A stretch of 64,000 bases of DNA from Zootoca vivipara (lineage: Eukaryota), in contig NC_083276.1 in assembly GCF_963506605.1 (NCBI RefSeq), positions 82,398,001 through 82,462,000 of the forward strand, written 5' to 3'. The translations under genes were made by a program, and so were the position numbers. A model generated the notes under the pieces. That model was not told where the DNA came from, did not search any database, and worked only from the letters and a program-made list of their open reading frames with translations. Positions 18,093 through 53,129 of this stretch are shown piece after piece (position 1 is the stretch's first letter; each line of letters opens with the position of its first letter).

Positions 18093-19260
18093 AATCATAG
18101 AATCATAGAGTTGGAAGAGACCACAAGGGCCATCCAGTCCAACCCCCTGCCAAGCAGGAAACACCATCAAAGCATTCTTGACATATGCCTGTCAAGCCTC
18201 TGCTTAAAGACCTCCAAAGAAGGAGACTCCGCCACACTCCTTGGTAGCAAATTCCACTGTCGAACAGCTCTTACAGTCAGGAAGTTCTTCCTAATGTTTA
18301 GGTGGAATCTTCTTTCTTGTAGCTTGAATCCATTGCTCCGTGTCCGCTTCTCTGGAGCAGCAGAAAACAACCTTTCACCCTCCTCTATATGACATCCTTT
18401 TATATATTTGAACATGGTTATCATATGACCCCTTAACCTTCTCTTCTCCAGGCTAAACATACCCAGCTCCCTAAGCCGTTCCTCATAAGGCATTGTTTCC
18501 AGGCCTTTGACCATTTTGGTTGCCCTCCTCTGGACACGTTCCAGCTTGTCAGTATCCTTCTTGAACTGTGGTGCCCAGAACTGGACACAGTACTCCAGGT
18601 GAGGTCTGACCAGAGCAGAATACAGTGGTGCTATTACTTCCCTTGATCTAGATGCTTGATCTAGATTGATGCAGCCCAGAATTGCATTGGCTTTTTTAGC
18701 TGCTGCATCACACTGTTGACTCATGTCAAGTTTGTGGTCTACCAGGACTCCTAGATCCTTTTCATATGTACTGCTCTCAAGCCAGGTGTCTCCCATCCTG
18801 TATTTGTGCCTTTCATGTTTTTTTGCCTAAGTGTAGTACTTTACATTTCTCCTTGTTAAAATTCATCTTGTTTGCTTTGGCCCAGTTGTCTAATCTGTTA
18901 AGGTCATTCTGAAGTGTGATTCTGTCCTCTGGGGTATTAGCCACCCCTCCCAATTTGGTGTCATCTGCAAACTTGCTCAGGATGCCCTCAAGCCCATCAT
19001 CCAAGTCATTGATAAAGATGTTGAATAAGACTGGGCCCAAGACAGAACCCTGTGGCACCCCACTAGTCACTACTCTCCAGGATGAAGAGGAGCCATTGAT
19101 GAGCACCCTTTGGGTTCGGTCAGTCAGCCAGTTACAAATCCACTGAATGGTAGCATTGTCTAGCCCACATTTTACCAGCTTCTTTACAAGAATATCATGG
19201 GGCACCTTGTCAAAGGCCTTGCTGAAATCAAGATAGGCTATATCCACAGCGTTCCCTTCA
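18093..19260 (-). mobile_element. CR1 LINE, 5'-truncated, with RT domain (frameshifted)
   Basis: ORFs 18813-19367 ([26 protein letters not shown]) and 18167-18796; (ATTCTATG)n-type tail. Confidence 0.95.
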
Positions 19261-19760: not shown

Positions 19761-20708
19761 ATGAATCCAATAGCTAAAGAAAATGACACCATGGCAACCA
19801 GCTTCAATCTCTTTGGACTAACAGAAAATCTGGAGCTGTGGCCTCCACTCTTTGTAGTCTTTTTAATAATCTATATTGCCACACTGGTGGGGAATCTTGG
19901 GATGATTATATTGATCTGCATAGATCCTCAGCTGCACACCCCAATGTATTTTTTTCTCAGCAGCCTGTCCTTTCTAGATGCCTGCTATTCTACCACCATC
20001 ACACCTAATATGCTGGTGAATTTTTTAGTAGAAAACAAAAGCATCACTTATGCTGCCTGCATTGCACAATATTGTTTCTTTGCAATCTTTGCCACTACTG
20101 AGTTTTTTCTGCTGGCAGCCATGGCGTATGACCGGTATGTGGCTATCTGCAACCCTCTGCTCTATGCTTCTGTGATGACCAATAAACTTTGTGCAGGTCT
20201 GATAGCAGGATCCTACCTCTTGGGTATTGTGAACTCCCTGATTCAGACGGGTGGCTTGTTGAGACTGTCCTTCTGTGGTTCCAACGTCATCAATCACTTT
20301 TTTTGTGATCTCACGCCCCTTCTGAAACTGGCCTGTAATGATATCTACATAAACGAGATGCTGGTATTCATTTTTGGTAGCCTGTTTGAAATGAGCACCT
20401 TGCTGGTCATTATAATCTCTTATGTATTCATTATTATAGCTGTAGTCAGGATCCGCTCTGCTGAGGGGAGGCATAAAGCTTTCTCCACATGTGCCTCCCA
20501 CCTCACAGCAGTGGCCATATACCATGGGACCATTCTTTTCATGTACTTCAGACCCAGCACCAGCTACTTTCTTGACACAGACAAAATAGCCTCTGTGTTT
20601 TACACGGTGATAATACCTGTGTTGAATCCTTTGATCTACAGTCTGAGGAACAAGGATGTAAAATGTGCTCTAAGAAAAGTGATTCAGAGAAAAGTGGTAT
20701 TTCAATAA
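19761..20708 (+). CDS. Olfactory receptor, class II, OR5-like (intact)
   Basis: 315 aa, [45 protein letters not shown]; acceptor TTCCTAACAG ending 19750. Confidence 0.97.
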
Positions 20709-22642: not shown

Positions 22643-22778
22643 CAGTGGTCCTCAACCTTGGGCCTCCAGATGTTTTGAGACTACAATTCCCATCATCCCT
22701 GACCACTGGTCCTACTAGCTAGGGATCATGGGAGTTGTAGGCCAAAAACATCTGGAGGCCCAAGGTTGAGGACCACTG
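22643..22778. mobile_element. hAT MITE, 136 bp
   Basis: Long TIR CAGTGGTCCTCAACCTTGGGCCTCCAGATGTTTT; perfect TSD CTTTAGAT. Confidence 0.9.
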
Positions 22779-23275
22779 CTTTAGATGTTCAGCAGGTCTT
22801 GGTCAAGCAATGTAGTGGGATTAGGGGTCTGCATGCTGATGCACATCAGTGTCTTTAGCAACACCTGTGGGAGGTCATATGTGCACAGAAAACCCTTCCA
22901 AGAATGTGTCTCTCTCTTGCAGGATTTGAATGACTGAATGCACTGCAATATCCCTATGTGTGTTGAGAGAATTTCTCTCATAGTGATACATGGGAGATCC
23001 TTACACAGACATGGTAGATATGACATGCAAGGAGAGTTTCTTGAATCTATGAAGGAAGAGAAGCCAAAGTCCTATCCAGTCCTAAACTTCATGCTACAGC
23101 CCTTTAGACCAATTAAATACAAAACAGTACAGATTGCCCAGTCAAATTGTATTGTGGAGACTGTGTCTGATTCAAGACACTGTAGCACATACACCACCAC
23201 CATTTGTGTAATTCAGACAGTTGGAAAGGATCCAGCTCTGCCATTGTTGGACTCTGGTTCAAGTGCAATGGAATA

Positions 23276-23527: not shown

Positions 23528-24011
23528 TACATTCCCAATATCAAAGGCAGTTTTAGGGTAGCATGACCAGTTTGGCCACACTGGGCACCACAACAATGCT
23601 GTAGAAAACAGCACGAGAGGCAGGGGGTGCTGAATTTTAGCATTGCACAGGACACCACTGGAATTTGAGAGCCCAAAGTCCGCCATTGCCCATATGGCAT
23701 ACATAAAACTGAGAAAATTATTTATATGTCATACTGAAGACTGGGCTAACACAAATATTGATTATGGAGTTCCTTGTACTTTGAAGCATGGACAAAATAA
23801 ATTATGAGGAAAGGTATGTTCATTATTTATATTCAACTAGAGGGGGGGGAAGAACAGCAATTCAGTTTTTAATTAACTTTAAAAAAGCAGAGCTTTTTTA
23901 AGAGCTCCCACAAGTGTACTTTTTAATTATTTTCTCTGAGACTAGAGTTGCTTCAGGGATTTCATTAAAAATAATAAAAATCCCTCTCCCATCATAAACC
24001 ATTGAATCTGG

Positions 24012-24152
24012 TTACAGGTAGGTAGCCGTGTTGGTCTGGATCGAAGTAAAATAAAAAAATTCCTTCAGTAGCACCTTAAAGACCAACTAAGTTTTTATTT
24101 TGGTATGAGCTTTCGTGTGCATGCACACTTCTTCAGATAGAAGAAGTGAATC
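24012..24152 (-). mobile_element. Penelope-like retroelement terminal-repeat fragment
   Basis: 13-bp flanking duplication CCATTGAATCTGG (23999-24011, 24153-24165); carries hammerhead motif, then AATAAA and TTAGTTGGTCTTTAAGGTGCTAC; short 5' inversion. Confidence 0.75.
24104..24139 (-). ncRNA. Minimal type I hammerhead ribozyme motif
   Basis: Minus strand UAU-CUGAAGA-A-GUGUG-CAUG-CACAC-GAAA-GC-UC-AUA: both conserved core boxes, perfect stem II, minimal palindromic stem III, 3-bp stem I. Confidence 0.75.
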
Positions 24153-24694
24153 CCATTGAATCTGGGATCAACTGTCCTGTAAAAAATTGTGCAGTGATGC
24201 TGCCATGCACTCATTCCAGCCTCCTGGTAAAGGTAGACTGCCTTCCTCTATTCCTTGCAGATGGTGTCAGCTGTAGCTGGGACTTCCAGATTTCATTTGC
24301 ATGTTTTAAGGTAGCAGCAAGCAAATTGCATTCAGTGTTTGTTTTCCACTGCAAACTGAATGATAATGAAGATGTATGTGATTCATGCCCAAACCTGACA
24401 AATCCAACAAAGGTGCTGGTAAGAACAGAGTTTGTTTGCTTATTTAGTTGGAGTCTATATTTCCTTGGACACATATTTTGAATCTATTCAATTAGTACAT
24501 TGATTGTTAAAGTCCATTCTGATCGTTTTAATGTTTATGTAAAAAATATGCTAAATTTCTGGTTTCACTATGCTGGCTGTTTAGCCGTAATAATAAACAT
24601 TCATTCAGTTTGTTCATTTTAAAAAAATACTTTCCTTGAACGGGTATGTAATGTTAGAATTACAAGGGCATGAAAACATAAGTAGACCCATTGG

Positions 24695-25778: not shown

Positions 25779-26708
25779 ATGGCTGTAAACAATTACACTA
25801 TGGCGACTGAATTCATCCTTCTTGGACTAACAGATCGGCCGGAGGTTCAAGTTCCCCTCTTTGCGATATTCCTGTTGATCTATATTCTGACATTGGCTGG
25901 GAATATGGGGATGATAGTACTGATCAGGGTTAGCCCCCGGCTTCACACCCCTATGTATTTCTTCCTTAGCAATCTTTCTGTAGTTGATCTCTGCTATTCT
26001 TCCATCTTTGCCCCAAGGCTGTTGATGAATTTAGCACAATCTAATATCATTTCTTATGCGGGATGCATCACTCAGCATTGCTTCTTTGTAGTGTTTGTGA
26101 GTACTGAAGCCTTCCTCTTAGCTGCAATGGCATATGACCGTTATATTGCCATATGTAACCCCCTGCTCTATACTGCTATTATGTCCAAAAGTGTCTGCAT
26201 TTACTTAGTAGCAGGGGCATACTTTGGGGGGATATTGAATTCCATCATACATACTTCTGGATTGCTGAGGCTATCATTCTGTGCCCCTAGTATAATCAAC
26301 CACTTCTTTTGTGATACCCCAGCTATGTTGAAAGTTGCATGCTCTGATATCCATATCAATGAACTTTTGTTGGTAACCTTCTCTGCGACAGTTGCTATTT
26401 CTACACTCCTGATCATTGTAATCTCTTACCTCTACATCCTCTCCTCTGTCATAAAGATGCGCACTTCTGAGGGCAGAATCAAAGCCTTCTCCACCTGTGC
26501 TTCCCATATGACAGCTGTGACTTTGTTCTATGGACCAGTAAGCTTAAGCCACTTGCAGCCCAGTTTCATGTACTCTGTAGAACAGGAGAAGATCTCAGCT
26601 GTGTTCTACACCCTGGTGGTCCCAATGCTGAACCCATTAATCTACAGCTTGAGAAACAAAGAGGTAAAGGATGCTTTGAAGCAAGTGATCAATTGGCAAA
26701 AGAAATAA
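25779..26708 (+). CDS. Olfactory receptor, class II (OR5J-like), intact
   Basis: 309 aa, all OR motifs; ECL3 [12 protein letters not shown] recalls mammalian OR5J. Confidence 0.96.
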
Positions 26709-48601: not shown

Positions 48602-49125
48602 TTTTTGTTGTTGTTGTTTAGTTGTTAAGTCATGTTCCGACTCTTTGTGACCCCATGGACCAGAGCACGCCAGGCACTCCTGTCTTCCACTGCCTCCCGC
48701 AGTTTGGTCAGACTCATGCTGGTAGCTTCGAGAACACTGTCCAACCATCTCGTCCTCTGCCATCCCCTTCTCCTTGTGCCCTCAATCTTTCCCAACATCA
48801 GGGTCTTTTCCAGTGAGTCTTCTCTTCTCATGAGGTGGCCAAAGTATTGGAGCCTCAGCTTCAGGATCTGTACTTCTGGTGAGCACTCAGGGCTGATTTC
48901 CTTCAGAATGGATAGGTTTGATCTTCTCGCATTCCATGGGACTCTCAAGAGTCTCCTCCAGGACCATAATTCAAAAGCATCAATTCTTTGGTGATCAGCC
49001 TTCTTTATGGTCCAGCTCTCACTTCCATACATCACTACTGGGAAAACCATAGCTTTAACTATACGGACCTTTGTCGGTGGGGTGATGTCTCTGCTTTTTA
49101 AGATGCTGTCTAGATTTGTCATTGC
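48602..49125 (-). mobile_element. BovB/RTE fragment (unit 1 only)
   Basis: ORF 48625-49122; TSD CAAATATTACT/CAGATATTACT; absent at the paralogous site ~54400. Confidence 0.92.
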
Positions 49126-52022: not shown

Positions 52023-53129
52023 TGTTGTTGTTTAGTCGTTTAGTCGTGTCCGACTCTTCGTGACCCCATGGACCATAGCACGCCAGGCACTCCTGTCTTG
52101 CACTGCCTCCCGCAGTTTGGTCAAACTCATGTTCGTAGCTTCGAGAACACTGTCCAACCATCTTGTCCTCTGTCGTCCCCTTCTCCTAGTGCCCTCAATC
52201 TTTCCCAACATCAGGGTCTTTTCCAAGGATTCTTCTCTTCTCATGAGGTGGCCAAAGTATTGGAGCCTCAGCTTCACGATCTGTCCTTCCAGGGAGCACT
52301 CAGGGCTGATTTCCTGAAGAATGGATAGGTTTGATCTTCTAGCAGTCCATGGGACTCTCAAGAGTCTTCTCCAGCACCATAATTCAAAAGCATCAATTCT
52401 TCGACGATCAGCCTTCTTTATGGTCCAGCTCTCACTTCCATACATCACTACTGGGAAAACCATAGCTTTAACTATACGGACCTTTGTCGGCAAAGTGATG
52501 TCTCTGCTTTTTAAGATGCTGTCTAGGTTTGTCATTGCTTTTCTCCCAAGAAGCAGGCGTCTTTTAATTTCGTGACTGCTGTCACCATCTGCAGTGATCA
52601 AGGAGCCCAAGAAAGTAAAATCTCTCACTGCCTCCATTTCTTCCCCTTCTATTTGCCAGGAGGTGATGGGACCAGTGGCCATGATCTTGGTTTTTTTGAT
52701 GTTGAGCTTCAGACCATATTTTGCGCTCTCCTCTTTCACCCTCATTAAAAGGTTCTTTAATTCCTCCTCGCTTTCTGCCATCAAGGTTGTGTCATCTGCA
52801 TATCTGAGGTTGTTGATATTTCTTCCGGCAATCTTAATTCCGGCTTGGGATTCATCTAGTCCAGCCTTTCGCATGATGAATTCTGCATATAAGTTAAATA
52901 AGCAGGGAGACAATATACAACCTTGTCGTACTCCTTTCCCAATTTTGAACCAATCAGTTGTTCCATATCCAGTTCTAACTGTAGCTTCTTGTCCCACATA
53001 GAGATTTCTCAGGAGACAGATGAGGTGATCAGGCACTCCCATTTCTTTAAGAACTTGCCATAGTTTGCTGTGGTCGACACAGTCAAAGGCTTTTGCATAG
53101 TCAATGAAGCAGAAGTAGACGTTTTTCTG
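52023..53129 (-). mobile_element. BovB LINE, 1.1-kb 5'-truncated, open RT frame
   Basis: 336-aa ORF with GVRQGCILSP and LRYADD; TSD GATATTGGGT; absent at the paralogous site ~57285. Confidence 0.96.

What the first reader, a model, noticed from the sequence alone, without database searches (positions are those of the whole stretch)
24012..24152. Hammerhead ribozyme motif in a 141-bp Penelope-like insertion between two OR genes
Seen: minus strand reads UAU CUGAAGA A GUGUG-CAUG-CACAC GAAA GC UC AUA, then AATAAA; the insert is bounded by a 13-bp duplication CCATTGAATCTGG. Established: CUGANGA/GAAA/UH is the hammerhead core, and minimal type I hammerheads with a tiny palindromic stem III occur in the terminal repeats of Penelope-like elements, where they are thought to work as dimers. 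Inference: this is a solo, 5'-truncated Penelope terminus. Predicted cleavage is after the C of UC (between 24107 and 24106). An extra A lies between A9 and stem II. Stem I is only 3 bp here, so this copy may be inactive.
Basis: partly seen in the sequence, partly recalled or inferred. Interest (0 to 1): 0.7.

Follow-up and report, generated by a model that had tools for sequence, protein, structure and literature searches.

The report
Fresh Penelope leader insertion, crippled hammerhead
This is a 141-base insertion, absent from four other samples of the species, of the hammerhead-bearing end of a Penelope-type jumping gene, a known motif type with thousands of copies in this genome; it is likely a copy of the front of the element's capped RNA, and this copy is predicted to misfold and not cut.

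Summary
Confirmed and largely ordinary. The motif, the 13-bp duplication and the predicted cut site are as described. Bases 24012-24139 are 128/128 identical to the pLTR of intact 3,030-bp tandem Penelope-like elements (901-aa RT + GIY-YIG ORF, Neptune-type linker). Four of 4 other samples carry the empty site, so the insertion is young and polymorphic. The family core looks selected: free position 7 varies in 1,610 copies, A6 and A9 in 49 and 40. The 'extra A' is a published feature. This copy lost the G of the family's 4-bp stem I, and a 9-nt inverted piece is predicted to sequester the core. One correction: family copies end sharply at that G (3,983 of 14,338; 70 of 100 listed carry an extra G), 31 nt after a TATA-like box. 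They are likely run-off copies of the capped 5' leader, not random truncations. The scan noted this before, in this genome (e1-9556134) and others. Cleavage is untested; no RNA end pile-up was seen at the cut site.

The parts
23999..24011 (.). Target-site duplication, copy at the element's 3' end; 24007-24011 also match the element's continuation (5-nt microhomology)
24012..24139 (-). 128-nt sense piece of the pLTR/5' leader of a Neptune-type Penelope-like element
   Evidence: 100% identical to 10 of 11 pLTR copies in L078-L082, 127/128 to the eleventh
24012..24047 (-). Optional ~36-nt 3' 'tail' (between the two clusters of family 3' ends); boundary approximate
   Evidence: tail concept from PMC11167929 and PMC8557442
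24094..24099 (-). AATAAA, present only in some subfamilies; unlikely to be a conserved poly(A) signal
24103..24106 (-). Hammerhead stem I, 3' strand (AUAC); last base unpaired in this copy
24107..24114 (-). GAAA, palindromic minimal stem III (AGCU) and U16.1-C17; predicted cut between 24107 and 24106
   Evidence: sequence; hammerhead numbering from established knowledge
24115..24128 (-). Stem II (5 bp, G10.1-C11.1) with CAUG loop; a perfect 14-nt palindrome
24129..24136 (-). CUGAAGA box plus the extra A between positions 9 and 10.1
24137..24139 (-). Stem I, 5' strand, cut to UAU; the family has GUAU, whose G is the inferred transcription start
24140..24148 (+). 9-nt inverted copy of element sequence (GAAGAAGTG on +); pairs with the catalytic box in the RNA model
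24149..24152 (.). 4-nt junction filler, matching target-site sequence nearby
   Evidence: sequence; origin inferred
24153..24165 (.). Target-site duplication, copy at the element's 5' end

Best explanation
The insert is a polymorphic mini-copy of the hammerhead-bearing leader of a Penelope-like retrotransposon with intact RT/GIY-YIG copies in this genome; it was likely made when the element's enzyme nicked the target, primed inside the element's RNA and copied back to within one base of its likely capped 5' end, and it is predicted not to self-cleave. Steps. (a) Shown: source family, 13-bp duplication, empty allele. (b) Inferred: staggered nicks 13 bp apart; priming about 130 nt downstream of the RNA start, helped by 5 nt of microhomology. 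(c) Inferred: the RNA starts at the G of stem I, 31 nt after a TATA-like box; the cDNA ran off one base short, folded back for 9 nt and was joined to the target with 4 nt filler. (d) Predicted: 3-bp stem I, no partner copy in the window and a 9-bp hairpin over the core leave this copy silent. (e) Inferred: in source elements the ribozyme is maintained by selection and works as a dimer or with the element's protein; a cut would remove a 34-nt capped fragment from the element's mRNA.
For: Identity to intact tandem units with RVT_1 (E 3.8e-12) and GIY-YIG above Pfam cut-off. Empty allele in 4 of 4 samples. TSDs of 12-14 bp in 59 of 81 long-tail copies with a 9-20 bp duplication (81 of 116 examined); junction microhomology >=3 nt in 28 of 81, 5-9 expected. 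3' ends bimodal: 48 and 37 of 98 copies in two clusters ~37 nt apart. 5' breaks: 27.8% just before G-4, 9.7% at -3, 7.2% at -2, against 0.3-0.7% point-variant background; 28 of 30 inspected -3 breaks are true truncations; further upstream, 21 ends in 36 nt among 90 copies. Extra G in 70 of the first 100 listed at -4 against 21 of 100 at -2, both counted by hand; among 57 G cases only 7 could come from an inverted arm and 5 show TSD plus a lone G. TATA-like 8-mer at -35 in 57 of 58 copies where the strict motif matched (69 of 131 kept the upstream region). Core: N7 variants 1,610, A6 49, A9 40, extra A 101. Covariation across three families: 38 cells changed on both sides, shuffles 14.6. Folding: stem II pair probability 0.01-0.10 in this copy, 0.75-0.83 in an intact pLTR.
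Against: No direct TSS data: three RNA-seq runs (about 6% of each read) showed no pile-up of read starts at the inferred start or at the cut site. 17 of 57 extra-G junctions were unresolved, 6 had the G as last TSD base and 18 sat beside inverted arms. This copy lacks both the G and the extra G, so its origin from the TSS class is statistical. Samples come from the first listed places on contig C1 and count both arms of inverted insertions (27 of 41 short copies). N7 variation reflects a few subfamily-level changes, and no matched non-ribozyme control positions were counted. Covariation rows were picked by patterns that fix part of stem II, and three related families are not independent; stem I paired in only 69% of cells. 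The modelled hammerhead dimer (-12.7 kcal/mol) is far above a competing palindrome duplex (-32.2) even for the intact copy. PMC11167929 reports priming without target homology for a Poseidon element.
Confidence: 0.72

Rival explanations
1. Ordinary 5' truncation of the 3' pLTR of a long element RNA, with the RT stopping preferentially just after the ribozyme because the 14-nt stem II palindrome folds in the cDNA or the RNA structure stalls it; no link to a transcription start.
For: 5' truncation and inverted 5' pieces are standard for PLEs (PMC8557442 passages). 15 of 97 copies end inside the core or stem II. This copy has a fold-back piece and no extra G.
Against: A structure stall does not predict a one-base-sharp peak with an extra G in 70 of 100 or fixed TATA spacing; an RT would meet the structure at its 3' side, not after leaving it (inference).
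Confidence: 0.2
2. The short hammerhead unit is itself a non-autonomous, self-propagating element (SINE- or retrozyme-like) amplified from short masters or circles.
For: Tens of thousands of short copies; a 598-bp four-unit tandem array with a hammerhead in each unit exists in the genome (L031); a preprint derives animal retrozymes from PLEs (10.64898/2026.07.22.740005, part 1 and passages read).
Against: Short copies lack the upstream TATA-like box; their ends and junction fillers vary copy by copy; this one is solo and identical to autonomous elements; copies starting at the cut site are rare (84 hits, 18 of 30 truncated).
Confidence: 0.05
3. This copy is an active or host-relevant ribozyme that cuts transcripts in the olfactory receptor cluster.
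For: All catalytic nucleotides are intact.
Against: Absent from 4 of 4 other samples; antisense to both flanking OR ORFs, 3.3 kb and 1.6 kb away; core predicted to be sequestered; only one family copy in the window.
Confidence: 0.03

Closest known systems
Minimal type I hammerheads (min-HHR) in pLTRs of metazoan Penelope-like elements (Cervera and De la Pena 2014, PMC4209133; parts 1-2 of 4 read)
   Same: CUGANGA/GAAA/UH core, extra nucleotide between 9 and 10.1, G10.1-C11.1, palindromic 15.2-16.2, short helix I, mostly dispersed single motifs; reported in reptiles.
   Different: Stem II is 5 bp (7-8 bp in the Schistosoma families described); this copy has a 3-bp stem I and an occluding inverted piece.
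Poseidon_Ac of Anolis carolinensis (Frangieh et al. 2024, PMC11167929; parts 1-2 of 4 read)
   Same: Squamate-type tandem PLE with pLTR hammerhead, two clusters of 3' ends 30-40 nt apart (tail), uncleaved RNA as the dominant template, no RNA-seq ends at the cut site.
   Different: This family has the CX4CxxC linker absent from Penelope/Poseidon; its start codon lies downstream of the ribozyme, not in stem II; its 3' junctions show microhomology excess.
Adineta vaga Pen2a (Arkhipova et al. 2013, PMC3846280; passages read)
   Same: pLTR with a TATA box about 20 bp before an Inr-like TCACT, inverted pLTR, optional tail, 8-10-bp TSD, solo pLTRs.
   Different: The passages seen do not tie copy 5' ends or an extra G to the start site; TSDs here are mostly 12-14 bp.
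Untemplated 5' G of full-length LINE-1 and SVA insertions (PMC4859970; two passages read)
   Same: Extra G at the 5' junction read as a copy of the m7G cap.
   Different: There it marks full-length insertions; here it marks ~130-nt leader copies, because priming is internal.

Membership tests
Minimal PLE hammerhead (min-HHR) | CUGANGA, GAAA and UH boxes around stem II | tested here: met
Minimal PLE hammerhead (min-HHR) | Extra nucleotide at 9/10.1, G10.1-C11.1, palindromic 15.2-16.2 | tested here: met
   A, G-C and GC respectively
Minimal PLE hammerhead (min-HHR) | Helix I of 4-5 bp | tested here: not met
   3 bp in this copy; 4 bp in the intact family
Minimal PLE hammerhead (min-HHR) | Core conserved and stems covarying across copies | tested here: met
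   caveats on relatedness and row selection apply
Minimal PLE hammerhead (min-HHR) | Self-cleavage as dimer or with protein | not testable with these tools
   no RNA end pile-up at the cut site; cut-site genomic starts only weakly above control
Rfam hammerhead families | Covariance-model match | tested here: not met
   no hammerhead among 12 matches at E<=10
EN+ Penelope-like element | Single ORF with RT and C-terminal GIY-YIG, in tandem units forming pLTRs | tested here: met
   source elements L078-L082, 3,030-bp period
EN+ Penelope-like element | Optional 30-40-bp tail; inverted 5' pieces; variable TSD | tested here: met
Neptune clade | CX2-5CxxC linker between RT and EN (absent in Penelope/Poseidon) | tested here: met
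   CNKPRCQLC in the ORF; criterion from PMC8557442 passages
Neptune clade | RT phylogeny groups with Neptune | not tested
   no reference set was on hand; Nematis not excluded by a tree
Non-LTR retrozyme | Tandem repeats with a hammerhead in consecutive units | tested here: not met
   solo copy in the window

The most novel reading that the evidence does not exclude
The Neptune pLTR promoter starts capped transcription on the very first base of the hammerhead, so the ribozyme is a self-decapping switch on the element's mRNA, and the genome's tens of thousands of solo hammerheads are 'strong-stop-like' run-off cDNAs from internal priming sites to the cap, primed with target microhomology, rather than truncated 3' ends or a SINE.
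Probability: 0.65. Interest if true: 0.5.

Novelty: new member of a known kind. Interest (0 to 1): 0.27.

Why it matters
The copy itself is a fresh, probably neutral insertion and a usable population marker. The family is more useful: an apparently active vertebrate Penelope-like element with intact tandem units whose copies record where priming starts and, likely, where the RNA begins. If the start site is stem I's first base, it explains why solo minimal hammerheads are so numerous in animal genomes and makes the open question of the PLE ribozyme's role testable: cutting would decap the mRNA, while uncut capped RNA is what gets inserted.

Tried and rejected
Rfam scan: no hammerhead model matched. 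One search translated a wrong frame; corrected. One search's 5' ends used one reference and an offset of one base; redone. crashed; redone, whose one-sided null was corrected. Cut-site footprint: 84 copies with a purine before the cut site (18 of 30 truncated) against 84 at a control two bases on (5 of 20 truncated), Fisher p 0.02, but several are inversions or small duplications sharing the first bases; judged inconclusive. No RNA holder of this locus was listed. RNA-seq laid on an intact unit showed high depth over the ribozyme region, mostly reads running on into unlike sequence (42-89%), and no end pile-up at the cut or inferred start; random-fragment libraries cannot settle either. A 3' splice site before stem I (as in Drosophila Penelope) was considered: some subfamilies have CAG there, this one has CAC, and no shared upstream exon was seen. 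AATAAA as poly(A) signal rejected. Lunse et al. 2017 (PMC5785218) is not held; I saw only its title in a reference list and a review's summary. Supplements of the cited papers, which hold reptile alignments, were not read and may already show this motif. Literature searches for a PLE cap/TSS link listed nothing that states it in the passages I saw; subscription papers are not covered.

Full report
Observation. The minus strand at 24139-24103 carries TAT CTGAAGA A GTGTG CATG CACAC GAAA GC TC ATAC, and CCATTGAATCTGG flanks it at 23999-24011 and 24153-24165. The nearest long ORFs on either side that look like olfactory receptors (label from recalled motifs) lie on the plus strand at 19761-20708 and 25779-26708, so the motif is antisense to both and 3.3 and 1.6 kb away. 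The loose core pattern is at chance level in the window (5 matches, 5.86 expected) and Rfam has no hammerhead match, so the case rests on relatives.

Source family. A 19-mer from the motif has 27,805 exact matches in the own genome, control 0. Upstream of longer copies lies a GIY-YIG frame. A pattern from the ORF start gave 91 matches, several in pairs 3,030 bp apart. Five such regions hold tandem units with a 901-aa ORF (RVT_1 E 3.8e-12; GIY-YIG above cut-off). Window 24012-24139 is 128/128 identical to 10 of their 11 pLTR copies and 127/128 to the last. The ORF has the CX4CxxC linker that Penelope/Poseidon lack (PMC8557442 passages), so Neptune is the likely clade; no tree was built.

Age. 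Contigs of 4 of 4 other samples of the species (3 studies) join 23998 to 24153, skipping 154 bp with 13 letters fitting on both sides. The duplication is therefore a true TSD and the insertion is polymorphic.

Anatomy of the insert. From the element's 3' end: the first five TSD bases equal the element's own continuation (133/133 match); 128 nt of sense leader; a 9-nt inverted element piece; 4 nt filler. In the family, 81 of 116 long-tail copies had a 9-20-bp duplication, 59 of them 12-14 bp, and microhomology of 3 nt or more occurred in 28 of 81 against 5-9 expected. 3' ends form two clusters about 37 nt apart (48 and 37 of 98 copies; the short cluster is blurred by subfamily differences), matching the PLE 'tail' and the two internal RT start sites shown for an Anolis Poseidon element (PMC11167929). 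That paper found no target homology at priming, so the microhomology excess here is a difference.

Is the ribozyme real? Every feature of the published minimal hammerhead is present, including the extra nucleotide at 9/10.1 (PMC4209133). Against 14,338 intact copies, single changes number 49 at A6, 40 at A9, 101 at the extra A and 1,610 at the free position 7. This fits selection on source elements, though it reflects a few subfamily events and I counted no non-ribozyme control positions. Two older motif families were found; an 18-row alignment (window, L080, L007, L010 and 14 of the 37 loci, chosen by eye) gave 38 cells changed on both sides against 14.6 in shuffles, stem II 92% paired and stem I 69%. 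Row selection and relatedness weaken this.

This copy. The family stem I is GUAU/AUAC; the window copy lost the G. Its inverted 9 nt pair with the catalytic box: -12.8 kcal/mol against -5.5 for stem II alone, with stem II pair probability 0.01-0.10 against 0.75-0.83 in an intact pLTR. It is the only family copy in the window. It is predicted to be inactive. In the same model even the intact hammerhead dimer lies far above a competing palindrome duplex, in line with the weak or protein-assisted activity reported for PLE hammerheads.

How short copies arise. 43 of 97 sampled copies have their 5' end within -15 to +11 of C3. Genome-wide, 3,983 of 14,338 copies that reach G-4 break just before it (27.8%), 1,542 of 15,880 break at -3 like this copy, and 1,232 of 17,112 at -2; 28 of 30 inspected -3 cases are real truncations. 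Further upstream only 21 ends fall in 36 nt among 90 copies. The base before G-4 is G in 70 of the first 100 listed, against 21 of 100 at -2 (hand counts). In 57 G junctions (from the 30 loci plus 40 further G places fetched), 5 show TSD plus a lone G, 4 TSD plus filler ending in G, 6 a G as last TSD base, 18 an inverted arm plus G, 7 could take the G from an inverted arm and 17 are unresolved. A TATA-like 8-mer starts at -35 in 57 of 58 copies matching the strict motif, 31 nt before G-4; a TATA-Inr pair in a pLTR has precedent (PMC3846280), and an extra G is the accepted cap mark for LINE-1 and SVA (PMC4859970). I infer that the pLTR transcript starts, capped, on stem I's first base, and that short copies are run-off cDNAs from the internal priming sites. 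RNA-seq could not confirm this. Copies starting at the cut site are rare and only weakly above a control, so uncut RNA is likely the main template.

Prior notes. I wrote down the start-site idea before reading the scan's notes; the extra-G test was prompted by note e1-8159767, and note e1-9556134 reports the same result in this genome. These are not independent support.

Verdict. A real, young, probably silent copy of a known kind of motif from a new member of a known element class. Interest 0.27. The cap run-off reading is the part worth a specialist's time (probability about 0.65).

Noticed in passing
window 22643-22779: A ~137-bp near-perfect palindrome that scores below threshold against several unrelated miRNA models; looks like a MITE.
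   Followed up: no
window 52032-53042 (-), 48625-49122 (-), 18167-18796 (-): Reverse-transcriptase-like ORF fragments of LINE type (RTE/BovB-like and CR1-like by recalled motifs).
   Followed up: no
window 3769-62459: Nine intact-looking olfactory-receptor-like ORFs of 309-322 aa on both strands, four of them closely similar.
   Followed up: no
L031 (G000:C1:2777300-2779750): Four-unit 598-bp tandem array, each unit with an intact hammerhead, made by joining the ORF start to the GIY-YIG end through a short shared sequence; retrozyme-like and a natural dimer substrate.
   Followed up: partly
L078-L082: Near-identical tandem 3,030-bp elements with open 901-aa ORFs on contigs C1, C2 and C5, some with inverted partner arrays; the family looks active.
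   Followed up: yes
L039-L047 and L118-L144: Two older, decayed minimal-hammerhead families with 6-bp stem II and different stem I pairs; link to an ORF not tested.
   Followed up: partly
L032-L035, L084-L086, L110, L112, L116: Head-to-head palindromic mini-insertions whose two arms both end at or inside the hammerhead, often one arm with and one without the tail.
   Followed up: partly
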